A stretch of DNA of 64,000 nt, taken from contig CAZOUY010000003.1 of NCBI GenBank assembly GCA_964583155.1, positions 22,150-86,149 of the forward strand, in the 5' to 3' direction. The first letter of the stretch is position 1. The number at the start of each line of letters is the position of its first letter. Of this stretch, positions 14,738 through 61,748 are shown in pieces. Made by a program: the position numbers and the translations under genes. This DNA comes from an uncultured Coprobacillus sp. (GTDB taxonomy: Bacteria; Bacillota_I; Bacilli_A; RFN20; CAG-826). The notes under the pieces were generated by a model that had not been told where the DNA came from, did not search any database, and saw nothing but the letters and a program-made list of their open reading frames with translations.

Positions 14738-15391
14738 CTATTTGGATTCTTTAGAAGCCATGCGCTTTTGATAATCGGCATACGAAAAACGACATCCGCA
14801 ATATGGCTGTTGATACAATTGATACTTCTTTCGCAATTCACGCCCGTAATCAGCGCCCTTTTTCTTTTTAAAATCCGAGAAGAAATAGCGACAATGCGCA
14901 TGCTGTTTATCCAGCTCTTGTCCGATTTCATTAATCTTAACCGCATTCTTTTGGCTCGAGATCGTCATGACCGTTGTAAAATAATCAAAGCCATTTTGTT
15001 CCGCATAATCATACGCTTCTTGCATACGTAATCGGTAGCATAAAAAGCATCTTTCACCGCCTTCTGAAAGATGAGACATTGGGAAAAGATTTTTTACATA
15101 CTCTTCTTCGGTATAGGAAGTCACAATGCATGGGACATCGTAATGATAGTCACGCTTGATGCATTGCAAATATTTTTTTAATTCTTGTAAACGATGGTCG
15201 TATTCCTCTTTGGGAAAAATATTGGAATTATTGAAGAAAATAGTGACCTCAAAATATCTGCAAAGAAAAAGTATTGGAAAAGTAGCACATGGGCCACAGC
15301 ACGCGTGTAACAATAAACGTGGACGAGATTCCAATTGTTGCACCTTTTCTATTTCCGCAAGCGAAAGGTTATAGTAATGGAGCTTTTCCAT
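14738..15391 (-). CDS. queH: epoxyqueuosine reductase QueH (DUF208)
   Basis: Contains ...[14 protein letters not shown]..., the QueH Cys motif. ORF extends to 15445, but the plausible start MEKLHYYNL is at 15391. It overlaps the queA 3' end by ~23 nt in either case. Confidence 0.8.
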
Positions 15392-16412
15392 AAATAAACA
15401 TCGCATCACCAAAAGAGAAAAACCGATAGCGATTTTCCACCGCATGATGATACGCCTCCAAAATTAATTCACGCCCCGCAAATGCCGAAACAAGCATAAT
15501 TAAGGTCGATTTAGGTAAATGAAAATTGGTAATCAGGCCATCAATGGCTTTAAACTGATAGCCGGGATATATAAAAATGTTGGTTTCGCCTTGACACGCA
15601 CAGAAGGAAGAATACTTTTGCATCACTGACTCCAAAACACGAGTTGAGGTTGTACCAATGGCAATAATCCTTTGATGGTTAAGTTTGGCTTTGTTTAAAA
15701 TATCCGCTGTTTCTTGAGACATCCAATATGCTTCTGTATGCATTTGATGCTCGCTAATTTCCTCAACTTTGACCGGTCTAAACGTACCTAATCCAATATG
15801 AAGAGTTACTTCTGTAATGATGACACCCTTCGCTTTGATTCTTTCCAGCAATTCCGGCGTAAAATGGAAGCCGGCAGTCGGAGCGGCTGCGCTACCTTCA
15901 ATCTTTGCATAAACCGTCTGATAACGGCTATTATCACCGCATTGCTTTTTTATATAGGGAGGAAGTGGCATTTGTCCTAATTCTTCTAAAACCTCATAAA
16001 AAATGCCTTGATAGTGCATATGAAAATGGCGGAGGCCTTCATCAAGAACCTGCACGCATTCCGCCACCAATTTTCCATTTCCAAAGCTAACACGTGTCCC
16101 TAATTTCACCGTTTTCGCATTGCCCACTAGACACTCCCACTGATCGTTTTCAATCTGTTTTAATAGCAATACTTCAACATGGGCATTTGTCTGCTCTTTT
16201 GTTCCCAAAAGTCGAGCGGGAATAACCTTCGTGTTATTGCACACCAAAACGTCACCTTCGTGCAAAAAGTCAATAATTTCATAAAAATGGTGATCGGAAA
16301 ATTTTTGAGTCGATAAATCGATAGTTAAAAGACGCGAGCCATCTCTTTTTTGACTGGGCTCCTGCGCTATTAAATCTTCCGGTAATTCAAAATCAAAATC
16401 ATGTATATTCAT
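15369..16412 (-). CDS. queA: S-adenosylmethionine:tRNA ribosyltransferase-isomerase
   Basis: 347 aa, [19 protein letters not shown]...[12 protein letters not shown]..., a QueA hallmark. Confidence 0.9.
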
Positions 16413-16413
16413 T

Positions 16414-17574
<1,161 letters not shown>

Positions 17575-17594
17575 TTACAATTAAATTAATCTTG

Positions 17595-18299
17595 CTACTT
17601 AATTTGCTTCTTTAAGATTCGTACTTCCTTTTTCATCTTCTTCTGCTGTTGTTTGGCTTCCTTTTTCGCCACTCTTTTTACTGCCTTAGTCGGTTTGCTC
17701 GTACCGAAAGAATTTGTGTCAAGAACATCATCATTCATTCCATCAAGTGTGATGATCTTATGGGCCACTAGTTTAAAAACTTCAGCTTGAATAGCCATTT
17801 TGAAGGCCAATTGCGACATTTCATATTGAACATCATTTTGAGAGATATTACCCTCCTCTACTTTTTCCTTTAAGTCCGTCAGTGCGTTTTGCACCTGTTT
17901 GATGACATACTGAAGGGCCTGCTCATGAATTTCTTTAAAGCAGTTATAAATGGTATCATTCGTATCGTTGGTGCGTTCATCAATTTTTAAAAGACAATCA
18001 ATATCTCGTAACGAAACGATTTGCTTCAGCAAGCAAATGACTAAAAGATAAGCCAAATGCTCACGATTATATTTTTTATTTTGAGGCGGGTTAATAAGGC
18101 CTGATTTAACATAATTGTTAATCATATACGCTGTTAAAAACGAGTCATCGCTATCGGCGTATGGTTGTAATTTTTGCTCTAAAAAAGATAATACCTGATC
18201 GCTATATAAATCAATATCAGGGAGCTGATCCCACGACGGAATATCAAAAGCGGATATTTTTTCTAGCCATAATTCTAAATCTTTAAATATACTCATCAT
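17595..18299 (-). CDS. DUF1836-like protein with K-rich coiled-coil C-terminus (function unknown)
   Basis: 234 aa. The N-terminus ...LPDIDLYSDQVLSFLEQ... resembles DUF1836-family proteins as recalled from memory. Its ATG overlaps the stop of the upstream membrane-protein gene (ATGA coupling). Confidence 0.4.
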   Translation of the reverse strand: MMSIFKDLELWLEKISAFDIPSWDQLPDIDLYSDQVLSFLEQKLQPYADSDDSFLTAYMINNYVKSGLINPPQNKKYNREHLAYLLVICLLKQIVSLRDIDCLLKIDERTNDTNDTIYNCFKEIHEQALQYVIKQVQNALTDLKEKVEEGNISQNDVQYEMSQLAFKMAIQAEVFKLVAHKIITLDGMNDDVLDTNSFGTSKPTKAVKRVAKKEAKQQQKKMKKEVRILKKQIK

Positions 18300-19519
18300 A
18301 TTTTTTCTCCTTCCATCATTGGATGCTCATCACCAATCTCTTTTTGAGGATTTTTACCCTTCATATAGCCATATATAATCATTACTATTAAAAGCATTGG
18401 GTCCATAAAGCATGGCATTAAATCATCATAATTTAAAAAGATTTTTTGCTCGTAATTTAGATTAACATAAACGAAATAACAAATAATCAGTGACAATAAG
18501 CATTCCTTAACAAGCTTCGAATCATCCGCGTATCGATAGTAGCGATATAATTGATGAAACATTATTACCCACAAAATAATTAGGAATAGGAAAGGAATGA
18601 TGCCTCCTTGATAAGCCGCATCTAAAAAGATATTTTTGGAATTTGTTGTTAACGATTGCCCTAAGGGATACTTAAAAATATTTTTTAAAATATCTAATGC
18701 CATCTGAACACGCGGTATATTTTGACTTTTTACAATAATGAAAAGAAAGCCTCCGATAAGCACTACTGAAATGGCGCTTAAATATATGATGCGATGCTTG
18801 GTCTTTTTAGGATAAAAATGAATCAACAAAATGGCACCTAGGGCGATAAAGAACGCTAGTGCCCCTTGCCAGTATGGTAAGCTTATAAGACCGCAAACGC
18901 CTAAGACACCGCTTATTAAAGCAATATAGAACAATCGATCCTTCTTTGGGCTTTTATAGCACCATAATGCGCCTAATCCTGAAGATAAAAGAACCAAGAG
19001 ATATCCTAAAACAGATACATCGATATTTTCAAAGGAAAGCCCAACCAATAGCTTAGCGAGATTAGTAACCGTTCCTCCTCTTGTGGCAACATAGAAAAAG
19101 CCAAATTGAAATAGAGTATAGAATAAATTAATGATCCCAAAAACGATCATCGATAAATATAAGCTGATGATCGGATAATTTTTGAAATCTTCATTGGCGC
19201 TAAAAAGATAGCCGATGATGACGCTGCCTAGCGCGCTAAAGATAAGTGCTAAAATATTAGGGATATTGAGACCTGCTTCTTTATAAAATATACTGATAGT
19301 CAATAAATAGCCGATCGTTGCCAAAATCCATACTATAGAAGCAATATCAAGCTTTGGAAAAAGCTTATGATACAATACGATTCCTAAAATGGCAATTAAA
19401 CATACCAGTATGCGGATAAAAAGACTGAAAGGAAAAAAAGTCAATGATAACGAAAAGAACAATTCTAAGGCTAATATGCCATATAAATATCGTCCGAAAT
19501 TAATCTTTTTATTTTCCAT
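18296..19519 (-). CDS. large polytopic membrane protein, O-antigen ligase/Wzy_C-like (putative glycan polymerase or ligase)
   Basis: ORF 18296..19603. Likely start is MENKKINF at 19519, leaving a 20-nt gap to the GT-D gene. At least 10 predicted hydrophobic helices with one large loop. Family assignment is from architecture only. Confidence 0.4.
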   Translation of the reverse strand: MENKKINFGRYLYGILALELFFSLSLTFFPFSLFIRILVCLIAILGIVLYHKLFPKLDIASIVWILATIGYLLTISIFYKEAGLNIPNILALIFSALGSVIIGYLFSANEDFKNYPIISLYLSMIVFGIINLFYTLFQFGFFYVATRGGTVTNLAKLLVGLSFENIDVSVLGYLLVLLSSGLGALWCYKSPKKDRLFYIALISGVLGVCGLISLPYWQGALAFFIALGAILLIHFYPKKTKHRIIYLSAISVVLIGGFLFIIVKSQNIPRVQMALDILKNIFKYPLGQSLTTNSKNIFLDAAYQGGIIPFLFLIILWVIMFHQLYRYYRYADDSKLVKECLLSLIICYFVYVNLNYEQKIFLNYDDLMPCFMDPMLLIVMIIYGYMKGKNPQKEIGDEHPMMEGEKI

Positions 19520-19539
19520 ATCTTCTCTGCTCCTTTCTT

Positions 19540-20469
19540 TTACCAATAACAGCCGTTTTCCACTGATCTGTATCCATCTGGTTTGGAAGATGGATGAATC
19601 CAATACTCATTTTGATACTTGCATACATGTTCACGATTTTCCCATCTTCTGGCCATGATGCCAAACATCGTCGGAGTGGCCCCGCCGGTTTGAATAGCTT
19701 GTTTGCCTAACGCGCTTATAAATGTACATAACGGAGAGCCATATGCTCCCGCTCCTACCAAAGCAATATCAAAGTCCTTTTGCATAATTTCATTTTCCAT
19801 GAAATGCAAGGCCTCCTCCCAATCGGAAAAGCGATCATCAAGAGCTTCTCCGAGAGTTTGAACTGCTTTAATAGTCACCAAATTGAAGCTTGGAACAATG
19901 CCAGGAGGAAAAAGTAAATTTATTCTTTGATACTGTTTCTGGATATCTTCCGCAAAAGGGGAAATCACTAATACTTTTTTATGGGCTAAAGACTGAATCC
20001 AATCACCTCTTAATGGTTCAAAGGCTTCATATTGGATAACGTGGGCATGAGGACAATATTTACAATAAAAATAATCCTCCATATGGATTCCTGAAATTCC
20101 TAAAATAGTAGCTTTCTGAAACGATTTAATAGCGATTTGCGCATATCGGTTAAGCATCTTATCATTGTTTGGAAAAACGCCCGCGTTATTTTTGATACTA
20201 TACTTCACTTTCGATTTGAAATGCTTTTTAAACAGTAACTGTATTTTTTCATAATTGTTAACACAGGAAAGCTCTACCGCACCAAATCTGATAGCGGCAA
20301 AGGGCTCACCACTTTCAATCATCCTTTTTAGAAGATCATTACTGAAGCTAAGGGTAATATTCCTTTGATTCAGAAAGCGCTCTAAATTTTTTTTCTTATG
20401 AAAAAGATGGTATCGTAAAACATGATAGCTGTTTTTTAAAAAGAAACGAATATAATGCTTTCTCTCCAT
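19540..20469 (-). CDS. GT-D type glycosyltransferase (DUF1792 family)
   Basis: 309 aa soluble protein. ...AAIRFGAVEL... resembles the DUF1792 'RFGDGE' region. The size matches the GT-D enzymes that glycosylate Ser-rich adhesins. From memory; needs an HMM search. Confidence 0.5.
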   Translation of the reverse strand: MERKHYIRFFLKNSYHVLRYHLFHKKKNLERFLNQRNITLSFSNDLLKRMIESGEPFAAIRFGAVELSCVNNYEKIQLLFKKHFKSKVKYSIKNNAGVFPNNDKMLNRYAQIAIKSFQKATILGISGIHMEDYFYCKYCPHAHVIQYEAFEPLRGDWIQSLAHKKVLVISPFAEDIQKQYQRINLLFPPGIVPSFNLVTIKAVQTLGEALDDRFSDWEEALHFMENEIMQKDFDIALVGAGAYGSPLCTFISALGKQAIQTGGATPTMFGIMARRWENREHVCKYQNEYWIHPSSKPDGYRSVENGCYW

Positions 20470-20497
20470 ATCCTTAACTTAGCTCCCTAATGACTTT

Positions 20498-20526
20498 ATT
20501 ATACGCATAAACCTTTTAATTGGCAA
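20498..20526 (-). promoter_or_regulatory. sigma-A type promoter TTGCCA-17-TATAAT for the GT-D gene
   Basis: Minus-strand reading: ttgcca(20526-20521)-17 nt-tataat(20503-20498). SD gggag ~17 nt before the ATG at 20469. Confidence 0.45.
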
Positions 20527-20550
20527 AGTTAACAAAAAGATTTATATGAA

Positions 20551-21702
20551 TTACGAACCTACTTTGTGTGTCATAAAGTCGCGAAGGACATTTAAGAGCG
20601 CATAATTGACACGAAAGGGAGCGCTCAATTGATTTATTATATTGGACTTAAGAATACGAATCTTCTTATCAAAGAATGAAGGCAAGATACGATGATCGAC
20701 CATTTGCTCCTCATTTTTGAAAACAATATGAATATTGTCGTTGCGATGAAATAGATCCAAAAGACGTGCGTCATAGGTAGAAAAATATAGTAACGCTCCA
20801 TAATGATTCACGTGCTTATCTAAGAATAAGCGGATAATATACACAACCGTTTCATGCTGAAGATATTCTTCAATACCATCGATCATTAAAAGACCACCCG
20901 ATTGCAGAATGATATGCGTGGATAAATAAACCAAAATACCTCTAATAGTGCCTAAAGACAAAAAAGACGCCACATCACTCAGCGACATTTTTATTCTTTT
21001 GTGACTGGAATCATCAATCCATATCATTTGATCGTCTTCACTTTTCTCAATATATGAAATATTTAAACCAAAGACATGGCAAATAGTTTTGATCACATCT
21101 TGATTAACATATTTAATATAATTCAAAATGAGATTTAACATACTTAATTTATTATTCGGCTTAATATGAATTATATTAGGTAAATCCAAATCAAGAAACG
21201 AAGCAATGGAACGTGTCTTAGATAGAATCTTAATATGTGAAATTAAAGACACAAATCGCCCGGTCCATAGATTTTCCATATGCCGCGCTCTGACTCTTTT
21301 CATCGATAAGCTTTGCTTTTTGATTTGAACATAATTCTCATTGTTAGTTGTTCTAATAATATTCGGTGGCCAAATTTCGCAATTATATTTATAAATATTT
21401 TCTCTATCAGTAAAGTAAATTTCTAAATCGATTTTCTCTTTGCGGAAGTCCCATGCACGATAAAGAATTCTTCCTTCTTTAATGCACGCTAAACTAAAAT
21501 CCAGTAAAGCCAAAATTGTCGATTTTCCACCACCATTTTGTCCCATAAATACTTGACATGTTGGCATATATAATTTCCTGCATGCTTCAAGTAACTCTGG
21601 ATTATTACTTGGTTTTTTACTCGATTGACTAGCGATAAAATCTATCGTAAATCCATCCTTCAATTTCCTAAAACCAGTAACACTGATTTTTAAAATAAAC
21701 AT
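20551..21702 (-). CDS. stand-alone AAA_21/ABC-type ATPase (OLD/Abi-like N-terminal ATPase architecture, no fused nuclease)
   Basis: 383 aa. N-terminus MFILKISVTGFRKLKD (typical hhhKhxhxNFR start of SMC/RecF-like ATPases). Walker A GQNGGGKST. Walker B-like LLMIDGIEEYLQ. No recognisable SD before the ATG. Confidence 0.6.
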   Translation of the reverse strand: MFILKISVTGFRKLKDGFTIDFIASQSSKKPSNNPELLEACRKLYMPTCQVFMGQNGGGKSTILALLDFSLACIKEGRILYRAWDFRKEKIDLEIYFTDRENIYKYNCEIWPPNIIRTTNNENYVQIKKQSLSMKRVRARHMENLWTGRFVSLISHIKILSKTRSIASFLDLDLPNIIHIKPNNKLSMLNLILNYIKYVNQDVIKTICHVFGLNISYIEKSEDDQMIWIDDSSHKRIKMSLSDVASFLSLGTIRGILVYLSTHIILQSGGLLMIDGIEEYLQHETVVYIIRLFLDKHVNHYGALLYFSTYDARLLDLFHRNDNIHIVFKNEEQMVDHRILPSFFDKKIRILKSNIINQLSAPFRVNYALLNVLRDFMTHKVGS

Positions 21703-27680: not shown

Positions 27681-28059
27681 TGGTGGATCTGACGGGAATT
27701 GAACCCGTGTCCAAAGATGGCCCCACTTTAGTATCTACAGTTTAGTTGATGCTTTAATTTAATCTAGGGCGGAGGATCAACGCTCCTTAGCTAGACGTGA
27801 ATATCATTTTTTCATCATCCATTTATATTCATCATAGATGCCTATTCTTTCGTTATGACACTCACCCTAAGCGTAAAAGAATAAGACCTTAGGAAGCGCG
27901 CTGCCCATTATTGAAAATAATGGAAGACTAATAACGTCTGCTAATTAAGCAGCAGCGAAAGATAAATTTCTGTTGCCAGATATTTTTTTGTTGGTGATAA
28001 CGTCACCGCTCGACTGCAACTAAAGCCAAACACATCCCTGTCGAACCCAAGACAGACCC
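27681..28059 (-). ncRNA. ssrA: tmRNA (transfer-messenger RNA, SsrA), ~379 nt
   Basis: Minus strand. The 3' tRNA-like end GGACACGGGTTCAATTCCCGTCAGATCCACCA (27712..27681) carries a T-arm and CCA. The 5' end GGGTCTGTCTTGGGTTCGACAGGG (from 28059) pairs with the 3' strand as a 7-bp acceptor stem containing G3.U70 (Ala identity). The internal tag ORF ends ...GGC AAC AGA AAT TTA TCT TTC GCT GCT GCT TAA, giving a tag of about GNRNLSFAAA (stop at 27945-27947). Confidence 0.75.
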
Positions 28060-29505: not shown

Positions 29506-30681
29506 ATGAAAGTAAGTGTTGATACAACAAAAAAGAAACAAACCGAAGAAAAGCGTACCGCAAAATCGACCTTTAAATTATTATTTCGTTCATTATTTAA
29601 AAATGATGCTTGCGTAGAGGCCAAAAAATTACCATGGTATCTTGCCGTTATTAGCTTTTTTCTTTCGGTCTTAATTTCCATCATCCCTCCCGTGGTTTCT
29701 AGCGGAACGGAAAAAGGAAGTTATGTCTTAACCAACGAGACCTATTCTATGGATGTTGGATTTACGGCGTTCAATAATTTTTTATACAAAAACAAAATTG
29801 ATATTATCGTCAAATCGCAAACCAATGATGCTGGCAAAATAATTGACACTACACTTTCGATGGATGTTGATAACTATGCCAAATGGAAAAATGCTAGTGA
29901 GACTATCGAAACCAATGGTTATACCTATTATGAATTCAAAACAAATGATGCTTCCGGAAATCCCGGACCGGCACGTTTTAGAGTTTTCTATATCAATGGC
30001 GATAAAAATGTTGCATCCGGTGTCACTCCAGCGTCCGATTTCTTCTATAACAATGAGCGTTTTGGAGTTCGTTCAACCTCCAATGAGCCTGAAAGCGATG
30101 GCTACATTGCTCCGGCTTCCTTTATGGTTTTAGGAACCCACGAAATATTCATCGCCGTCTATAAAAATGCATCTACCAAAAATTCAGAATATTCCGGATC
30201 TCCTTTCCGCGGTGATTATTTAAGACTTACGAGCGCTGATGGAATCCATCTACACACCCTTTTATTAGGTAAACAATCAACCGAAGAGGATGTTGAAGCT
30301 GTTAAAAACTTTTCGATGATGAACCCAAAGTGGGAAAGTCCTGAAGAATCAGGATGGATTAATTTCCTGAATGCGGCTTACTCTTTCACTCGAATGAACA
30401 ATACTCTCATGATGTTTTCTATGCTAACCGGTATTAATGCATTAATTATATTGGTTTATGGATTTACCCTATGGATTCTAACGCGCGGTAAGAAAAATCC
30501 TAATCGTGGTATTAAAGTCAATGAAACGATGAAAATTTCCTGTTTCTCGGCTCTCTCGCCTGCGATATTATCACTCATCATCGGGTTTATTTTACCGAGA
30601 TTTGGAACATTCAGCTTTATATTACTATCCAGCTTCCGTCTCATGTGGCTCTCGATGAAAACCATGCGACCAATGGAATAA
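29506..30681 (+). CDS. hypothetical membrane protein (N-terminal TM anchor, ~270-aa extracytoplasmic domain, C-terminal 3-4 TM bundle)
   Basis: 391 aa. Hydrophobic segments at ~aa 44-64 and ~300-385. No family recognised. Confidence 0.5.
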   Translation: MKVSVDTTKKKQTEEKRTAKSTFKLLFRSLFKNDACVEAKKLPWYLAVISFFLSVLISIIPPVVSSGTEKGSYVLTNETYSMDVGFTAFNNFLYKNKIDIIVKSQTNDAGKIIDTTLSMDVDNYAKWKNASETIETNGYTYYEFKTNDASGNPGPARFRVFYINGDKNVASGVTPASDFFYNNERFGVRSTSNEPESDGYIAPASFMVLGTHEIFIAVYKNASTKNSEYSGSPFRGDYLRLTSADGIHLHTLLLGKQSTEEDVEAVKNFSMMNPKWESPEESGWINFLNAAYSFTRMNNTLMMFSMLTGINALIILVYGFTLWILTRGKKNPNRGIKVNETMKISCFSALSPAILSLIIGFILPRFGTFSFILLSSFRLMWLSMKTMRPME

Positions 30682-30840
30682 TTTTATTGCCCTTTAAGCC
30701 CTCATACTTTTCTATAGGATAAGATTTACCTCTTGTCACTAGATGATTTTAAAGGTATTGGGGCTTTTTTAATTAATTTATATAAAATAATTGTCGACCT
30801 ATGATAAAATATTTTTGAAAATGACACGGAGGAATGATCG

Positions 30841-56493: not shown

Positions 56494-57753
56494 CTAAATT
56501 CCCAATTTGCTTTTGACCACAAAATTGTCGTTGCTTTGATTCATGTAATTGGCGCGATAGCGTGGCACATAAATAATTTTATTCTGATTGTTGACAATAA
56601 CCGGCCACTTCGATCGCAATTCCAATGGCATCTTCCAATCTAAAAAGAGCCGCCTAATAGTCTTACGCGCCCGTCCGATAATGATGACATCGCCCGGCTC
56701 AAAGCTTCTAATAGTCAATGGGTAATCATAATCAAAGACATTTCTGTTCGAAGTATCGCCACGGAAATCCAAGAAAAAGTAAGGCGTATCTAAAACATCA
56801 GGTGCTTCTAAAATATAGCTGTAACCCTTTATTTCCGATTCTCTTTGCACATAAAAGGTATCGTAGGCTTTAACTAAATAATATGGCGGAACTAACACTA
56901 TTTTCCAATTCGGCTTGTTGGCTTTTGCTGCCTGAATCATCAGCTGTGCCTTATATTTACTTAAAGAATAATCAACTATTCTTTGCGTAATGAATTCATG
57001 TAAACACAAAATTTGTTCCTCTTCACCAAAGGTTAAGAAGGTGCGAATAATCAGCTTGTTGTCAAGCAAAGCCTCTTGAATCTGCTTAAACTGCTGTTCT
57101 CTTTTTTGATTCAAGGTATCTTTTTCCTGTAAAAGAGATTGAATTTTAGAGTCATCGGCTTTTTCAATAATATGATGGCGAATACGATTGCGTTCGTAAT
57201 CATCTTTTAGATTGGAGGAATCGGTGGCAAATGGTATACCATGATCCTCACAATATTTCTGCAAATCCTTTTTGCGCCATTTTAATAAAGGCCGGATGAC
57301 CATCATATCATATAATTTTCTTTGCGGCATGATTCCGTAATACTTCAATATCTTCTTTCTTTGCATCAAAAAGGTTTCAAGATCATCATCCAAATGATGC
57401 GCCACCAAAAGTCCATCGGCCGAAAATTTACGATATATTTGCGCAAAAAAACGATAGCGAATATCGCGTGCCCACGCTTGGAAATTGACATGCGCGGGTG
57501 CTTCATCAGCCTGCAAGACATATAAAGGTATCCGCCGCTCTTGGCAATATTGCGTGAGGCGATATTCTTCATTGTTGCTTTCGGGTCTTTTATGGTAATT
57601 AACGTGACAGACAATAATTCGATACTTATTTTGATGTAGCATATCCAATAGAGCCATAGAATCAGGCCCAAAAGATACAGCAACGATATATAAGGATTGA
57701 GGATTAAGATTTTCCATAATACGCATCACCATTATTATTTTATCATAAAACAT
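56494..57753 (-). CDS. tilS: tRNA(Ile)-lysidine synthetase
   Basis: 419 aa. PP-loop variant VAVSFGPDSMALL. Position immediately upstream of ftsH as in B. subtilis, but without hprT. Confidence 0.85.
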   Translation of the reverse strand: MFYDKIIMVMRIMENLNPQSLYIVAVSFGPDSMALLDMLHQNKYRIIVCHVNYHKRPESNNEEYRLTQYCQERRIPLYVLQADEAPAHVNFQAWARDIRYRFFAQIYRKFSADGLLVAHHLDDDLETFLMQRKKILKYYGIMPQRKLYDMMVIRPLLKWRKKDLQKYCEDHGIPFATDSSNLKDDYERNRIRHHIIEKADDSKIQSLLQEKDTLNQKREQQFKQIQEALLDNKLIIRTFLTFGEEEQILCLHEFITQRIVDYSLSKYKAQLMIQAAKANKPNWKIVLVPPYYLVKAYDTFYVQRESEIKGYSYILEAPDVLDTPYFFLDFRGDTSNRNVFDYDYPLTIRSFEPGDVIIIGRARKTIRRLFLDWKMPLELRSKWPVIVNNQNKIIYVPRYRANYMNQSNDNFVVKSKLGI

Positions 57754-59923
57754 GACAAATAATCATTGTCGCATCATCAATATGTTTCATATTTTCTACA
57801 GCAATTTGAAACAAATGTCGAAAAAAACTATTTGGATCATTAATATTCTTAAAAATATGTGGGTCTTGAGCTTCTATATAATCACTAATGCCATCGCTGA
57901 CCATTATCAATAAATCATTTTTTTGAAGCTTAATGCTTTTCGTTTCCACATCGATTTCATCGAGCAATCCAATAGGCAATCCCCCAACAGGAATAGTTAT
58001 GATCTCATTGTCGCGAATGATAAATGATGGAGCGGATCCGCCTTTAAAAAAACGGCATTCCAAAGTCTGAAGCTGGATTTCACAAAAATCCAGAGTTGAG
58101 TAATTATCATCATTCGAGCTGACACGGAACAAAGCATTTATATCTTCTAAGCATGATATAATATTCCGCTCTTGCTGGTATAAAGTCATAAAAGAATGGG
58201 CTAACGATTGACTAGTATGCTCAGCTTTTTTATCATGTCCCATTCCATCACATAGTAAAATCGACATTTTAGACTTCTTTTGATCGATAATATAATAATC
58301 ACCAGAAGCATCTTTTTGAGCCGCTTGGCTATGAACGGTATAGGTAATAAGATGCTCAGCTATAGGAGTAAAAACCATTTCAACATTTTGATGTAGCCAT
58401 GACCTTTGTTGCTTTTCTAAGAAGAAATTGGTATCTAAGCATTGATTAAGAATCGGAAGCAATTTTTCTTCATTATCTTCGGACGATGGTAAGGTCACAA
58501 TTATTTGCGAACCATGGCATCGTATATTTTGAATATCGATCTCACATTGGCCGGCCTTATTAATAATTTGTTCCTTCACACTATATGAATGCTGATAATC
58601 ATCCTGCATATCGATTAATGGCTTTCGGATCTTATCCATCAAATTTGATAATATGTTCTTTCTTTTTAACGCTTCGATATAGTATCCGTCTTCAGTCATA
58701 TAAATTGCATGAGATTGTTGCAAAGAAAGCGTTAATTTGTATGGCTTAATACATTCCTTTGTGATTCTTCTTTTTTGCTCCGTTTTTAATTTATAAGCCA
58801 CTAATGATTGTAGATCACTCGGTAAAGGACAATATGATAAATGTTCACATTGGGCACAGGCTTCGCGATAAACTCTTTGTCCTGCTTTTTGACGCGGACT
58901 CATATTTTCTTGTCCTAATTCAAAATCCAAAGCGTTGATATAATCGATCATTCCCTGGATCTTTTCTTTATGATTCTTTTCATACTCTGAAAATAAAATC
59001 TGATTTTGAAATTCCTCTCTATTAATTAAATTATCCCATGCTTGAAAATTCATTTTTTTAAAAAGAATGGAAATGATAAGCGCTACTATTCCCTGATAAA
59101 ACACACCATTTGTGTAGAATAAAGGATCAAGCGCCCATGATATAATCAAAAGCGACACTCCATAAGCCAAATATGATTTTTTAAAGCAAAGAGAAACTAG
59201 GCATGGCAAAACCACCATCAAGGCTACAATTAATGAGTAATGATAAAAATGCACCAGCGAAATAAAGGTGCTCGTTAAAAAAATAACGCCAACGCCTTTT
59301 TTTGAAGATGGTAATGATAAAGCGATTAGGCGAATCATAATAAATCCTAATATCGGCCAAAACATCGAAGAAAAATGCAAGGCTAAAAGAAAGAGGCTCA
59401 ATGTTAATGGCGAGATGCTCAGACTTTCATCCTCATAACATTCAAATAATTTCCCTAGCTGCGTTGCAAACAATAAAGAGATAAATGTGCTGGTCAAGCA
59501 ATAAAAAGCGCTATTGATAGTCGGTGTTCTGACGATCATCGCTATCATTAAGAGAATATTAATGGTAAGCAAAGAATAATATCTTTGATAGGAGCTATGA
59601 AAAGCGATTTTTTGAAAACAGATTGAAATAAAAAAATAAACGACTGATATTAATATAATTTCTAATCCGTAGGCAATATTCACCAAGGAGGCAGTACAAA
59701 GCATCGAAACAAAAGTAATAAAATACGCTCTTCCTGAGCGCTGATATGATAAAAACAGCATTAATAGAATAAACGGATTAAATAAAAACGCTTTTTCCAT
59801 GAGGACAAAGCCACACGCTAATAAAGGTAATAAAAGCATATCGATTTTGTTCCATGTAAAAGAAAAGATTTGCCCTCGCGTTTTCTTGCTCACTAATTCC
59901 ATTTTTATCACCTCATTTTCCAT
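57743..59923 (-). CDS. spoIIE: SpoIIE-like PP2C serine phosphatase with ~10-TM N-terminal domain
   Basis: 726 aa. N-terminal polytopic region. C-terminal PP2C motifs ...LLCDGMGHD...DDATMIICHV. Its position relative to tilS-ftsH matches B. subtilis spoIIE. Confidence 0.75.
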   Translation of the reverse strand: MENEVIKMELVSKKTRGQIFSFTWNKIDMLLLPLLACGFVLMEKAFLFNPFILLMLFLSYQRSGRAYFITFVSMLCTASLVNIAYGLEIILISVVYFFISICFQKIAFHSSYQRYYSLLTINILLMIAMIVRTPTINSAFYCLTSTFISLLFATQLGKLFECYEDESLSISPLTLSLFLLALHFSSMFWPILGFIMIRLIALSLPSSKKGVGVIFLTSTFISLVHFYHYSLIVALMVVLPCLVSLCFKKSYLAYGVSLLIISWALDPLFYTNGVFYQGIVALIISILFKKMNFQAWDNLINREEFQNQILFSEYEKNHKEKIQGMIDYINALDFELGQENMSPRQKAGQRVYREACAQCEHLSYCPLPSDLQSLVAYKLKTEQKRRITKECIKPYKLTLSLQQSHAIYMTEDGYYIEALKRKNILSNLMDKIRKPLIDMQDDYQHSYSVKEQIINKAGQCEIDIQNIRCHGSQIIVTLPSSEDNEEKLLPILNQCLDTNFFLEKQQRSWLHQNVEMVFTPIAEHLITYTVHSQAAQKDASGDYYIIDQKKSKMSILLCDGMGHDKKAEHTSQSLAHSFMTLYQQERNIISCLEDINALFRVSSNDDNYSTLDFCEIQLQTLECRFFKGGSAPSFIIRDNEIITIPVGGLPIGLLDEIDVETKSIKLQKNDLLIMVSDGISDYIEAQDPHIFKNINDPNSFFRHLFQIAVENMKHIDDATMIICHVL

Positions 59924-59973
59924 GATAATAAAAAAAAGAAGCGAACCCTGTCGCTTCTTGTCAGATTATCCAG

Positions 59974-60243
59974 TTACTTAGTATTGGGGAATGAAACGAT
60001 GACCTTTCCATCATGAATATCAAGATCTTCATCAGAATCAAAATTTAAATAATAGCCATTTTGATCTTTATCACTCTCATCATAATCTTTGATGATGCGA
60101 TTCATTAATTCATTTAAAGCACGATTTTCATTATAAATATTAACTAATTTAAAAGAAAGTAACGCAAAAGAAACTAAAGAGCATAGAAAAAGAACACCAA
60201 GAGCATAACTAATGAGACGTTTGTTTTTTGCTTCGCTTTCCAT
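59974..60243 (-). CDS. divIC: small bitopic coiled-coil protein, DivIC/FtsB-like septum formation initiator
   Basis: 89 aa. One TM helix followed by a heptad-like stretch LVNIYNENRALNELMNRII. Syntenic with B. subtilis divIC. Confidence 0.45.
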   Translation of the reverse strand: MESEAKNKRLISYALGVLFLCSLVSFALLSFKLVNIYNENRALNELMNRIIKDYDESDKDQNGYYLNFDSDEDLDIHDGKVIVSFPNTK

Positions 60244-60634
60244 CTTTTTTTCTCCTTCTTTTCTTTCTTTTATTGATTATATCATAAATATGATGCAAAT
60301 GTTTATTAAGCGGATGTAAAATCCTTTTATTTATTTGGCATGCAATTCTTTCGTACCAAAGATTAAGATAAAACGCATAAAATTTTTGATATAAGAAAAG
60401 ACCAAGAAGAATCGCTAATAAAATGTGGATATTCAATTGACATTGGCAAACGCGAACCAAAAACAAAAAATAAGTATAGGCATACATCATGAAAAGTGGA
60501 ATCTCAAAGAGCATTCTTTGCCATTTTCCGTGCCAACGATAAAACAATCGGTTAAAAGCACCATAAATAGCCATGTCCACCATCGTAATAGCGATCGTGC
60601 CTAAAAAGACTTGAATCTGCGTTAAAAGCGTCAT
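60209..60634 (-). CDS. yabQ: small membrane protein, YabQ-like (spore cortex biosynthesis) with K/R-rich tail
   Basis: 141 aa. Three or four TM helices. Follows yabP as in B. subtilis. Overlaps the divIC-like ORF by 35 nt. Confidence 0.4.
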   Translation of the reverse strand: MTLLTQIQVFLGTIAITMVDMAIYGAFNRLFYRWHGKWQRMLFEIPLFMMYAYTYFLFLVRVCQCQLNIHILLAILLGLFLYQKFYAFYLNLWYERIACQINKRILHPLNKHLHHIYDIINKRKKRRRKKDGKRSKKQTSH

Positions 60635-60904
60635 TTATTTAAAGAGCTTCTTGAAAAAGTTTTCTTTCGGTGCTTCTTTGACCTTATTAATATAGGCTAC
60701 GCTATCGATGGTTCCTTGAATCGTCAATGTGCCTTTATCCATATCCATCAAGCCCAAGCTTAAATTGCTGCCTTTGACATTTAAATAGCCTAATTCTGTT
60801 TGCACTAAAAATTCATTTTGATTAAAGCTTTCTAATTTTAAAACACCATTTAAATCGACATTCTCACGGTTACCGATAATGATATGATACTTTTTGTCTT
60901 CCAT
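60635..60904 (-). CDS. yabP: YabP family sporulation protein
   Basis: 89 aa. ...IIIGNRENVDLNGVLKLESFNQNEFLVQTELGYLNVKGSNL...GTLTIQGTIDSVAYIN, the YabP family pattern. Confidence 0.7.
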   Translation of the reverse strand: MEDKKYHIIIGNRENVDLNGVLKLESFNQNEFLVQTELGYLNVKGSNLSLGLMDMDKGTLTIQGTIDSVAYINKVKEAPKENFFKKLFK

Positions 60905-60925
60905 AAAAAAACCTCCCTTTTCAAC

Positions 60926-61198
60926 CTATGAAGGAAGGTGAGGTTTTAGCACTTGCATGGAAATGATTTCATACATATCACCAGTATTTTGCTTTAATGA
61001 TGTTTCCGGTAAAGAAAGCACCCGAACAATTATTTCTTTATTTCCTAATTGAATTCTGATAATATCACCGATTTTAATTTCTTTTGATGGCTTAGCTAAT
61101 TGGTCATTAACATATACCTTGTCGCGGTCAATTACTTCTTTGGCAATACTTCTTCTTTTAATCAAGCGCGAAATTTTCAGAAACTTATCTAAACGCAT
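60926..61198 (-). CDS. yabO: S4-domain RNA-binding protein YabO (Hsp15-like)
   Basis: 90 aa, MRLDKFLKISRLIKRRSIAKEVIDRDKVYVNDQLAKPSKEIKIGDII, an S4 fold. Confidence 0.8.
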   Translation of the reverse strand: MRLDKFLKISRLIKRRSIAKEVIDRDKVYVNDQLAKPSKEIKIGDIIRIQLGNKEIIVRVLSLPETSLKQNTGDMYEIISMQVLKPHLPS

Positions 61199-61226
61199 CG
61201 CTGTTTTCTCCCTTTGCCTTATTTTA

Positions 61227-61748
61227 TCATACTTTTAGAATAGTCGTTAATAAATTCCGAAAAGCGTGGATGATTCGTACATTTTCTTCTGATAAATTAC
61301 CCTCATGAAGCACGATCAATCCACCCAATATTTCACTGTTATATGCCAAAGGAAACATTGTGAATTGATATTTGCTTCCTTGAGACACAATCATTTCATT
61401 ATTAGCGGTATAATTCTTCCGTTCAAATAGACGATTAAATAGGCCTTGATCGATTTCGATTCCTTCTTGTAGCTCTGAATTCGCATCATCGCTTTTAGTC
61501 AAAATCGTCCCATCGCGGACAACGATCACGGGATGATGGATCTCTTTCGCTAAGGTTAAAACGATATTGGTAACCGAATCATAATTATTCATAAAAGCAT
61601 TGTATTTTTGAATTTCGATGATCCCATTAGGATTAATACCTATCTCCAATCGATCACCTTCATTAATGCGAAGACGTGATCTAATACCCTTTGGAATCAC
61701 AATTCTTCCCAATTCATCAATTCTTCTAATTGCGCCAATTTGATTCAT
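61227..61748 (-). CDS. spoVT: stage V sporulation protein T (AbrB-type swapped-hairpin DNA-binding + GAF)
   Basis: 173 aa. ...IGAIRRIDELGRIVIPKGIRSRLRINEGDRLEI... AbrB/MazE N-domain plus a C-terminal GAF-sized domain. Follows mfd as in B. subtilis. Confidence 0.8.
   Translation of the reverse strand: MNQIGAIRRIDELGRIVIPKGIRSRLRINEGDRLEIGINPNGIIEIQKYNAFMNNYDSVTNIVLTLAKEIHHPVIVVRDGTILTKSDDANSELQEGIEIDQGLFNRLFERKNYTANNEMIVSQGSKYQFTMFPLAYNSEILGGLIVLHEGNLSEENVRIIHAFRNLLTTILKV

What the first reader, a model, noticed from the sequence alone, without database searches (positions are those of the whole stretch)
17595..20526. GT-D glycosyltransferase + Wzy_C/O-antigen-ligase-like polytopic protein + DUF1836: a small putative glycosylation module with its own consensus promoter
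Three minus-strand genes appear to form one operon. A TTGCCA-17-TATAAT promoter is at 20498-20526. A DUF1792/GT-D-like soluble glycosyltransferase (309 aa) is followed after 20 nt by a ~408-aa protein with at least 10 TM helices and one large loop. That architecture fits the Wzy_C family, which includes O-antigen ligases and protein O-oligosaccharyltransferases. A DUF1836-like protein is coupled by an ATGA overlap. GT-D enzymes are known (established) for modifying serine-rich adhesin glycans in streptococci. A GT-D next to a ligase-like membrane protein and no other polysaccharide genes (no Wzx flippase, no priming transferase nearby) is unusual. It may be a minimal protein or teichoic-acid glycosylation module.
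Basis: partly seen in the sequence, partly recalled or inferred. Interest (0 to 1): 0.5.

Follow-up and report, generated by a model that had tools for sequence, protein, structure and literature searches.

The report
Sugar-polymer enzyme pair plus regulator
Three co-transcribed genes encode a soluble sugar-transferase-like enzyme, a 12-helix membrane enzyme shaped like the O-antigen ligase/polymerase class, and a small DNA-binding regulator; the first two form a fixed pair in a large group of uncultured gut and environmental Bacilli and probably build a cell-surface sugar polymer, so this is a new family of a known kind rather than a new mechanism.

Summary
Three minus-strand genes lie at 19540-20469, 18296-19519 and 17595-18299, behind a TTGCCA-17-TATAAT promoter (20498-20526).

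- **Gene 1:** it matches Pfam GT-D-like (PF22882), not DUF1792 itself, and the family has no conserved DxE motif.
- **Gene 3:** it is DUF1836, a predicted helix-turn-helix regulator.

In 79 of 80 species-level genomes of uncultured Bacilli, the gene-2 homolog directly follows the gene-1 homolog. In 53 of 54 long-form loci the pair is followed by an unknown lipoprotein gene, and in 52 of 54 by a TupA-like ATP-grasp gene. About 30 of 79 loci also carry a Wzx flippase and GT4 transferases. This is a Wzx/Wzy-type glycopolymer cluster.

The window's sublineage keeps only the pair, with trimmed outer loops. Only the window and its nearest relative carry DUF1836.

The "self-contained minimal module" reading is therefore unlikely. 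This is a conserved core of a larger pathway: a new member of a known kind, of modest interest.

The parts
20498..20526 (-). Sigma-70-type promoter: -35 TTGCCA (20526-20521), 17-nt spacer, -10 TATAAT (20503-20498).
   Evidence: It matches 11 of 12 consensus positions and is the best match in the 10 kb scanned. It is one of 3 matches with at most 1 mismatch in 64 kb, against 1.03 expected. The -10 and -35 are conserved in position in relative L012, and other relatives have a TATAAT box 25-35 nt upstream of the ATG.
19540..20469 (-). GT-D-like soluble protein, 309 aa, a putative cytoplasmic glycan-building enzyme. Motifs: RFGAVE (61-66), GISGIHMEDY (124-133), DFDIALVGAGAYG (232-244), IQTGGAT (259-265), C-terminal GCYW.
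   Evidence: Pfam PF22882 E=3.4e-10, above the gathering score. NCBIfam GT-D_rel scores 29.9 bits, below its cut-off of 75. More than 323 homologs at 50-66% identity and 258 species-level genomes carry a relative. Cross-phylum invariant residues are listed. Distant homologs sit in O-antigen or capsule clusters.
19520..19539 (-). 20-nt intergenic spacer with an AAAGGAG ribosome-binding site between genes 1 and 2.
   Evidence: Read from the sequence.
18296..19519 (-). 12-TM WaaL/Wzy-fold (GT-C_B-type) membrane enzyme, 407 aa, a putative polymerase or ligase acting on undecaprenyl-PP-linked glycan. Candidate outer-face residues: R271, D300, Y143, G287, G306.
17595..18299 (-). DUF1836 protein, 234 aa: an N-terminal HTH-clan domain plus a Lys-rich C-terminal tail, a putative transcription regulator. 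It is joined to gene 2 by an ATGA overlap.
   Evidence: PF08876 E=9.7e-29 and weak MerR_1 E=0.038. The overlap is read from the sequence. It is present only in the window and in L004/L012 among 87 loci. DUF1836 belongs to the Pfam HTH clan and is a predicted regulator (PMC3146951).

Best explanation
The conserved unit is a two-gene cassette. DUF1836 is a recent add-on.

**Gene 1 (inferred).** It encodes a cytoplasmic GT-D-like enzyme that adds or modifies a sugar on a lipid-carrier-linked (undecaprenyl-PP) glycan at the inner face of the membrane.

**Gene 2 (fold shown, activity inferred).** It encodes a 12-TM enzyme of the WaaL/Wzy/SEDS fold class. After the glycan is flipped, this enzyme uses the undecaprenyl-PP-glycan at the outer face. 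It most likely polymerises repeat units, as a Wzy-type polymerase does. Less likely, it ligates the glycan to an acceptor. A conserved outer-loop Arg/Lys (R271 here) would bind the diphosphate, and the conserved Asp300 would activate the acceptor. This is the pattern described for CAZy clan GT-C1.

**Context (shown).** In most genomes of this uncultured Bacilli clade the cassette heads a Wzx/Wzy-type surface-glycopolymer cluster with an unknown lipoprotein, a TupA-like ATP-grasp enzyme, a Wzx flippase and GT4 transferases. In the window's sublineage only the pair remains at this locus. It sits between an AbiLi-like ATPase gene and tgt, and the membrane enzyme's outer loops are trimmed.

**Inferred consequences.** The priming transferase, flippase and other steps must be encoded elsewhere in the genome.

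**Gene 3 (inferred).** The DUF1836 HTH protein is translationally coupled to gene 2 and probably autoregulates the operon from the consensus-like promoter.
For: - **Domains:** Pfam GT-D-like on gene 1 and DUF1836 on gene 3.
- **Pairing:** the gene-2 homolog is the next gene on the same strand in 79 of 80 species-level loci. The one exception is cut off by a contig end.
- **Wider cluster:** of 54 long-form loci with at least 3 kb of downstream sequence, 53 have the lipoprotein c2 and 52 have ATPgrasp_TupA. About 30 loci have a Polysacc_synt/MurJ-type flippase and GT4 genes.
- **Only polymerase candidate:** in 25 of the 30 flippase-containing loci the WaaL-like protein is the only other polytopic protein. 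The extras in the remaining 5 look like MATE or MFS transporters from their N-terminal sequences; they were not run through a family search.
- **Weak family hits:** 3 of 88 members hit TIGR04370, oligosaccharide repeat unit polymerase (best E 2e-5). 2 of 88 hit Wzy_C (best E 4e-4).
- **Outer-face residues:** K/R is 80% conserved in the motif NxxLN[KR]LFN, position 300 is acidic in 91% of members, and no His is conserved. This fits the GT-C1 pattern of Arg plus Asp or Glu (PMC10920833).
- **Distant gene-1 homologs (28-33% identity):** they lie inside O-antigen or capsule clusters in Spirosoma, Azospirillum and Phocaeicola. In Phocaeicola the gene is again followed directly by an unannotated polytopic protein, in a locus with WecA-like, Wzc and Wzx genes.
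- **Purifying selection:** gene 1 is 64-66% identical across the sublineage and gene 2 is 35-54%, where pepT is 65-72% and queH is 54-67%.
- **Regulator:** DUF1836 belongs to the HTH clan and is linked to membrane-protein genes (PMC3146951).
Against: - No enzymatic activity, donor or acceptor is known for any PF22882 protein.
- The gene-1 family shows no detectable sequence relation to the only characterised GT-D, DUF1792/4PFX. It also has no conserved DxE motif.
- The window protein has no HMM hit to any Wzy or ligase family.
- Profile comparisons of the family with single Wzy_C or Phocaeicola sequences were not significant.
- The window holds no flippase, priming transferase or other GT, so the pathway is incomplete at this locus. 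I could not search the rest of the genome.
- Fold alone does not separate polymerase from ligase.
- The window protein's outer loop EL5 is half the family's median length. MAFFT did not align R271 with the family's K/R column, so that equivalence is my inference.
Confidence: 0.6

Rival explanations
1. Ligase reading, closest to the first reader's. The membrane protein is a WaaL, TacL or PglL-type ligase that transfers a finished undecaprenyl-PP-glycan to a glycolipid, teichoic-acid or protein acceptor. The GT-D-like enzyme finishes that glycan.
For: The best structural match is a bona fide O-antigen ligase. 2 of 88 family members weakly hit Wzy_C. The window locus has no polymer-type genes nearby. 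From my own knowledge, not tested here, WaaL-like ligases exist in Gram-positives (TacL) and in S-layer or protein O-glycosylation systems.
Against: No His is conserved in the family, whereas O-antigen ligases are defined by a conserved His plus two Arg (PMC10920833). Few Wzy polymerase structures are solved and none was among the significant matches, so "closest = WaaL" does not discriminate. In relatives the protein is the only polymerase candidate in flippase-containing clusters. 3 of 88 members hit the repeat-unit-polymerase model.
Confidence: 0.25
2. The GT-D-like protein is not a glycosyltransferase. It could be another nucleotide-binding enzyme, for example a modifying enzyme, or an accessory or regulatory subunit of the membrane enzyme.
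For: There is no conserved DxE. There is no sequence link to DUF1792 structures. The only weak PDB matches are to the GxGxxG dinucleotide-binding loops of thioredoxin reductases, at FDIALVGAGAYG. The strict adjacency and frequent overlap with the membrane gene would suit a physical partner. No PF22882 member has been characterised; a full-text search found no paper.
Against: The Pfam GT-D-like hit is above the gathering score. NCBIfam GT-D_rel gives E 3.8e-7. Homologs in other phyla sit among GT2 and GT4 genes in glycan clusters, including an ABC-transporter-type cluster with no Wzy-like protein, so the function does not require the membrane partner.
Confidence: 0.15
3. Relic. In the window's sublineage the pair is a decaying remnant of the ancestral cluster and no longer functions.
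For: The c2, TupA, flippase and GT4 neighbours are lost in all 5 sublineage loci. The membrane protein's outer loops are trimmed: EL5 is 33 residues against a median of 65, and EL3 is 28 against 39.
Against: Both ORFs are intact in 6 species. Gene 1 is conserved at 64-66% identity, like housekeeping neighbours. The promoter and ribosome-binding site are retained. Invariant family residues, including G287, D300 and G306, are kept.
Confidence: 0.05
4. The genes belong to an anti-phage defence island together with the upstream AAA ATPase.
For: The upstream gene (20551-21702) matches PADLOC AbiLi with E 2.4e-25. It is syntenic across the sublineage.
Against: None of the three module proteins hits PADLOC. 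The pair occurs in about 70 other genomes without that ATPase. A promoter separates the ATPase gene from the module.
Confidence: 0.03

Closest known systems
WaaL O-antigen ligase (PDB 7TPG/7TPJ; Pfam Wzy_C; CAZy GT121, structural class GT-C_B)
   Different: Sequence identity is 12-13%. There is no Wzy_C HMM hit. The catalytic His is not conserved, only one basic outer-loop residue is conserved rather than two Arg, and the outer loop is much shorter in the window protein.
Wzy-type bacterial polysaccharide polymerases (CAZy GT122-GT135; clan GT-C1 includes GT125-129)
   Same: Relatives sit in Wzx-flippase plus GT4 clusters, where this protein is the only polymerase candidate. The outer face has a conserved Arg/Lys plus Asp/Glu, as described for GT-C1. 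The family shows very high sequence divergence. 3 of 88 members give weak TIGR04370 hits.
   Different: There is no significant HMM assignment to any Wzy family. The pairing with a GT-D-like gene is obligate. I could not test membership of any CAZy family.
SEDS peptidoglycan polymerases RodA and FtsW (CAZy GT119)
   Different: The similarity is clearly weaker than to WaaL. There is no FtsW/RodA family HMM hit. The genomic context is glycopolymer genes, not division or elongation genes.
DUF1792 GT-D glycosyltransferase of streptococcal dGT1 (PDB 4PFX)
   Same: Pfam names the gene-1 domain "GT-D fold-like". Both are soluble enzymes in glycan pathways.
   Different: No PF08759 hit was returned and there is no detectable sequence relation to the solved structure. 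The defining DXE Mn2+ motif (PMC9804384) is absent as a conserved feature. The family has G-[AGS]-x-E and [DE]-F-D instead. The context is lipid-linked polysaccharide assembly, not serine-rich adhesin glycosylation.
DUF1836 regulators (B. subtilis YkrK, repressor of htpX; DUF1836 genes next to hemolysin III genes)
   Same: It has the PF08876 domain of the HTH clan, is about 234 aa long, and lies next to a polytopic membrane-protein gene.
   Different: That YkrK carries DUF1836 is my recollection and was not checked here. No operator was identified, and the gene is present only in the window and one relative.

Membership tests
Pfam GT-D-like (PF22882) | HMM score above the gathering threshold | tested here: met
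   40.1 bits against 27, E 3.4e-10, covering residues 47-264.
GT-D proper (DUF1792, PF08759) | HMM match to PF08759, or sequence relation to 4PFX | tested here: not met
   Only PF22882 was returned at E up to 0.1. Profile searches of PDB sequences with A3 and A6 found no GT-D chain at E up to 10.
GT-D proper (DUF1792, PF08759) | Conserved DXE motif that binds the catalytic Mn2+ (PMC9804384) | tested here: not met
   No D-x-E pair of columns is conserved in 40 family members. The only acidic-x-acidic pair is [DE]232-F-D234, and E66 sits in G-[AGS]-x-E. I could not make a residue-level alignment to 4PFX.
GT-D proper (DUF1792, PF08759) | GT-D three-dimensional fold | not tested
NCBIfam GT-D_rel (NF040628) | Score above the curated cut-off | tested here: not met
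   29.9 bits against a cut-off of 75, E 3.8e-7.
O-antigen ligase / Wzy_C (PF04932; CAZy GT121) | HMM match to Wzy_C | tested here: not met
   No hit for the window protein. Only 2 of 88 family members hit weakly, best E 4e-4.
O-antigen ligase / Wzy_C (PF04932; CAZy GT121) | 12-TM WaaL fold | tested here: met
O-antigen ligase / Wzy_C (PF04932; CAZy GT121) | Two conserved Arg plus a catalytic His on the outer face (PMC10920833) | tested here: not met
   In A2 no column reaches 60% basic residues (K/R/H) except one outer-loop K/R column at 80% with no His among its commonest residues, and no column has His as a majority residue; the other basic columns lie on the cytoplasmic side. There is no structure-based residue mapping.
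Wzy-type polymerase, clan GT-C1/GT-C_B | Conserved outer-face Arg/Lys plus Asp/Glu | tested here: met
   K/R is 80% conserved in NxxLN[KR]LFN, with R271 the likely equivalent in the window. Position 300 is D or E in 91% of members.
Wzy-type polymerase, clan GT-C1/GT-C_B | Encoded with a Wzx flippase and repeat-unit GTs | tested here: inconclusive
   Met in about 30 of 79 relatives within 6 kb. Not met in the window's 64 kb.
Wzy-type polymerase, clan GT-C1/GT-C_B | Polymerises undecaprenyl-PP-linked repeat units | not testable with these tools
   Needs biochemistry or genetics.
SEDS (RodA/FtsW) | Closest fold and family HMM | tested here: not met
DUF1836 (PF08876) | HMM match above the gathering threshold | tested here: met
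   100 bits against 27, E 9.7e-29, residues 21-116.
DUF1836 (PF08876) | HTH DNA binding or transcription regulation | tested here: inconclusive
   There is only a weak MerR_1 hit, E 0.038. The HTH-clan assignment comes from the literature.

The most novel reading that the evidence does not exclude
The GT-D-like and WaaL-fold pair is a previously undescribed two-component glycan synthase in which the two proteins form a physical complex. It would be near-universal in a large uncultured Bacilli clade (RFN20-like, by my recollection of the GTDB names). In the window's sublineage it would work as a stand-alone minimal system under a DUF1836 regulator. The cytoplasmic enzyme would load a lipid carrier, and the trimmed membrane enzyme would transfer the glycan to a wall, lipid or protein acceptor without a dedicated flippase or the c2/TupA partners. 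That would define a new GT-C_B family and give the first function for PF22882.
Probability: 0.12. Interest if true: 0.6.

Novelty: new member of a known kind. Interest (0 to 1): 0.33.

Why it matters
It assigns a fold and a likely role to a membrane-protein family that no Pfam or NCBIfam model recognises. That family has 111 clusters at 50% identity. It also gives the uncharacterised GT-D-like family (PF22882) a concrete, testable context.

The strictly conserved pair, present in 258 species-level genomes, marks the likely synthesis locus of a major surface glycopolymer in an abundant but uncultured group of gut and environmental Bacilli.

The reduced version in this window, with trimmed loops and lost partners, is a natural experiment on which parts of the system are essential.

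It does not point to a new mechanism.

Tried and rejected
- **First structure model:** an alignment of 4 sequences gave pLDDT 41 and was unusable. It was replaced by a model from an 88-sequence alignment.
- **AFDB50 fold search:** the library was unavailable.
- **Profile searches of PDB sequences:** the membrane family (A2) and the GT-D-like family (A3, A6) gave nothing meaningful.
- **hhalign:** the membrane family against the Azospirillum Wzy_C protein and the Phocaeicola polytopic neighbour was not significant, with probability below 1%. The aligned stretch was the same NIFLD..GG motif, so I treat it as a hint only.
- **Transporter reading:** rejected by the fold.
- **Defence-system reading:** rejected by PADLOC.
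- **Other features in 17400-20700:** no structured RNA was found, and the only Rfam hit in the window is a tmRNA elsewhere. The repeats found are short and look like chance.
- **Lipoprotein c2:** there is no Pfam hit, and the only PDB match is via the lipoprotein signal peptide.
- **Literature:** no paper mentions PF22882 or GT-D-like. The original DUF1792 structure paper and the YkrK paper are not held in the library.
- **Source organism:** it could not be named. Only Logan contigs were returned, and the taxonomy look-ups failed.
Full report
**1. What is in the sequence**

Three minus-strand ORFs are present as described (sequence).
- The first lies at 19540-20469 and encodes 309 aa.
- The second lies at 18296-19519 and encodes 407 aa, counted from the ATG at 19519. 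That ATG is preceded by AAAGGAG in a 20-nt spacer.
- The third lies at 17595-18299 and encodes 234 aa. Its start overlaps the stop of the second gene in ATGA.

The site TTGCCA-17-TATAAT at 20526-20498 matches 11 of 12 consensus positions. It is the best promoter-like site in the 10 kb scanned. It is one of three matches with at most one mismatch in the whole window, against about one expected by chance. Its position, 29 nt upstream of the first ATG in an 81-nt gap, makes a real promoter likely. So does its conservation in the nearest relative, which has -35 TTGCTT, a 17-nt spacer and -10 GTATAATAAAG.

No terminator-like site lies between the third gene and tgt, which starts 56 nt downstream. 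The relatives carry a TATAAT-like box upstream of tgt, and one has a hairpin-like inverted repeat there by eye. Read-through into tgt is therefore possible but not required.

**2. Family assignments**

Gene 1 matches Pfam GT-D-like (PF22882) with E 3.4e-10, above the gathering score. No DUF1792/GT-D hit was returned. It scores below the NCBIfam GT-D_rel cut-off.

Gene 3 matches DUF1836 with E 1e-28, plus a faint MerR-type HTH signal. DUF1836 belongs to the Pfam HTH clan and has been proposed as a regulator of adjacent membrane-protein genes (PMC3146951). B. subtilis YkrK is a "novel type" repressor of htpX (PMC8767453). That YkrK is a DUF1836 protein is my recollection and was not verified.

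Gene 2 has no Pfam or NCBIfam hit at all.

**3. The membrane protein**

A word-indexed search of 5.8 billion proteins found only four relatives. An exhaustive profile search found 111 cluster representatives.

An alignment of 88 of these gave a confident AlphaFold model, with pLDDT 91.9 and pTM 0.90. The model has 12 TM helices and, by the positive-inside rule, both termini in the cytoplasm.

The protein is therefore a WaaL/Wzy/SEDS-class (GT-C_B) enzyme and not a transporter. [quoted passage not shown]

At the sequence level the link is faint.
- 2 of 88 members touch Wzy_C.
- 3 of 88 touch TIGR04370, the oligosaccharide repeat unit polymerase model.
- The window protein touches neither.

Conserved outer-face features are as follows.
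- F142-Y143.
- A K/R that is 80% conserved within NxxLN[KR]LFN. I infer that the window's equivalent is R271 in QNIPRV.
- G287.
- D300, which is acidic in 91% of members.
- G306.
- No His is conserved.

For CAZy clan GT-C1, 1-2 Arg bind the diphosphate. An Asp or Glu in polymerases and SEDS enzymes, or a His in ligases, activates the acceptor. The pattern seen here fits the polymerase or SEDS variant better than the ligase variant.

**4. Comparative genomics**

Gene 1 has more than 323 close homologs at 50-66% identity, all unnamed. A scan of one genome per species found relatives in 258 genomes. Nearly all are uncultured Bacilli, Erysipelotrichales or "Mollicutes" MAGs.

In the 80 best loci, the membrane-family gene is the very next ORF on the same strand in 79. 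It usually overlaps or abuts gene 1. The one exception ends at a contig edge.

Gene 1 evolves like a housekeeping enzyme and its partner evolves much faster. Across the window's sublineage the identities are 64-66% for gene 1 and 35-54% for gene 2. For comparison, tgt is 91%, pepT is 65-72% and queH is 54-67%.

I clustered the flanking genes and identified them with Pfam. The typical locus reads GT-D-like, then WaaL-like, then the unknown lipoprotein c2 (usually on the same strand), with a TupA-like ATP-grasp gene and a Wzx flippase on the opposite strand, then a GT4 gene.
- Of 54 long-form loci with enough flanking sequence, c2 is present in 53 and TupA in 52.
- The flippase and GT4 genes are present within 6 kb in about 30 loci.
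- In 25 of the 30 flippase-containing loci, no other polytopic protein is present. The WaaL-like protein is then the only polymerase or ligase candidate.

The lipoprotein c2 has an invariant lipobox Cys but no known domain.

**5. The window's sublineage**

The window and five species-level relatives (L008-L012) share this gene order: pepT, AbiLi-like ATPase, GT-D-like, WaaL-like, [DUF1836], tgt, queA, queH, rpsJ.

All of them lack c2, TupA, the flippase and the GT4 genes at this locus. Their membrane proteins are short, with EL5 at 33 residues against a median of 65 and EL3 at 28 against 39. DUF1836 is present only in the window and in L004/L012.

The window's 64 kb holds no homolog of a flippase, priming transferase, GT2, GT4 or Wzy_C protein. 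The only sugar-nucleotide enzyme is a UDP-glucose/GDP-mannose-dehydrogenase-family gene 14 kb away.

The locus is therefore a reduced derivative of a larger system, not an ancestral minimal module. Intact ORFs, the retained promoter and the conservation levels argue that it still functions.

**6. The GT-D-like protein beyond Bacilli**

Homologs at 28-33% identity occur in three other places.
- In a Spirosoma ABC-transporter-type polysaccharide cluster.
- In an Azospirillum cluster with WbaP and two "O-antigen ligase family" genes, one of them confirmed as Wzy_C.
- In a Phocaeicola capsule locus with WecA-like, Wzc and Wzx genes. There the gene is again followed directly by an unannotated polytopic protein.

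This places the family in lipid-linked glycan assembly. It also shows that the family does not strictly need a Wzy-like partner.

Residues invariant across phyla include G63, E66, E131, E151, D234, GG-T (262-265), R275, E304 and the C-terminal YW.

The GT-D hallmark is a DXE motif that binds Mn2+ (PMC9804384). It is not conserved in this family, which instead has G-[AGS]-x-E and [DE]-F-D. No sequence relation to the solved DUF1792 structure is detectable. Only one GT-D enzyme has ever been characterised (PMC8784642). Calling gene 1 a glycosyltransferase is therefore an inference from the Pfam assignment and the genomic context.

**7. Verdict**

The specific family labels (DUF1792, Wzy_C) fail their HMM and motif tests.

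The "unusual minimal module" reading is better replaced by this one: the conserved core pair of a Wzx/Wzy-type surface-glycopolymer pathway, stripped of its neighbours in this sublineage and joined to a DUF1836 regulator.

I favour polymerase over ligase for the membrane enzyme at roughly 60:40 among the readings in which it is active. The defence-island, transporter and pseudogene readings are unlikely.

This is a new sequence family of a known kind of system and is of modest interest. Its main value is as an entry point to the uncharacterised GT-D-like family and to the envelope of an uncultured Bacilli clade.

Noticed in passing
window 20551-21702 (-): The gene just upstream of the module encodes a 383-aa P-loop ATPase that matches PADLOC AbiLi (E 2.4e-25) and weakly matches AAA_15 and AAA_21. 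No AbiLii-like partner is evident. It is syntenic but fast-evolving (32-50% identity) across the sublineage. In L004/L012 an AAA_14/DUF4143 gene is inserted between it and the GT-D-like gene.
   Followed up: partly
L017:8415-9359 and 66 other loci (cluster c2): A lipoprotein family of about 250-315 aa with an invariant lipobox Cys. It has no Pfam or PDB relative. It follows the pair in 53 of 54 long-form loci and is absent exactly where the membrane enzyme's outer loops are trimmed, so it may be an extracellular partner of those loops.
   Followed up: partly
L091:9886-11067 (Phocaeicola massiliensis OY726003.1): An unannotated 393-aa polytopic protein abuts the GT-D-like homolog in a capsule locus with WecA-like, Wzc and Wzx genes. 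It is presumably that locus's Wzy, with no Pfam hit and no significant profile match to the Bacilli family.
   Followed up: partly
window 27681-28059 (-): A tmRNA gene (Rfam RF00023, 135 bits). It is the only Rfam match at gathering threshold in the window.
   Followed up: no
window 34149-35743 (-): A UDP-glucose/GDP-mannose dehydrogenase-family gene (417 aa; only the N-terminal NAD-binding domain hits Pfam), preceded by an abutting 113-aa ORF with no hit. It is the only sugar-nucleotide enzyme seen in the window, 14 kb from the module.
   Followed up: no
window 57743-61748 (-): A sporulation-type gene set. SpoIIE (726 aa) has a Pfam hit. Small ORFs that look like yabQ, yabP and SpoVT/AbrB by sequence were not tested. 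This suggests that the small-genome, uncultured Bacilli lineage is, or descends from, a spore former with a cell wall.
   Followed up: no
window 29506-33417 (+): Three co-directional genes: a 391-aa protein with no hit, a 615-aa protein with weak membrane-protein hits (8xMP, DUF2207_C), and a LemA-family protein. Function unknown.
   Followed up: no
window 14738-15445 / 15369-16412 (-): The longest queH ORF (235 aa) overlaps the end of queA by 77 nt. Gene callers on the same sequence use a later start (217 aa), so the extension is probably not translated.
   Followed up: no
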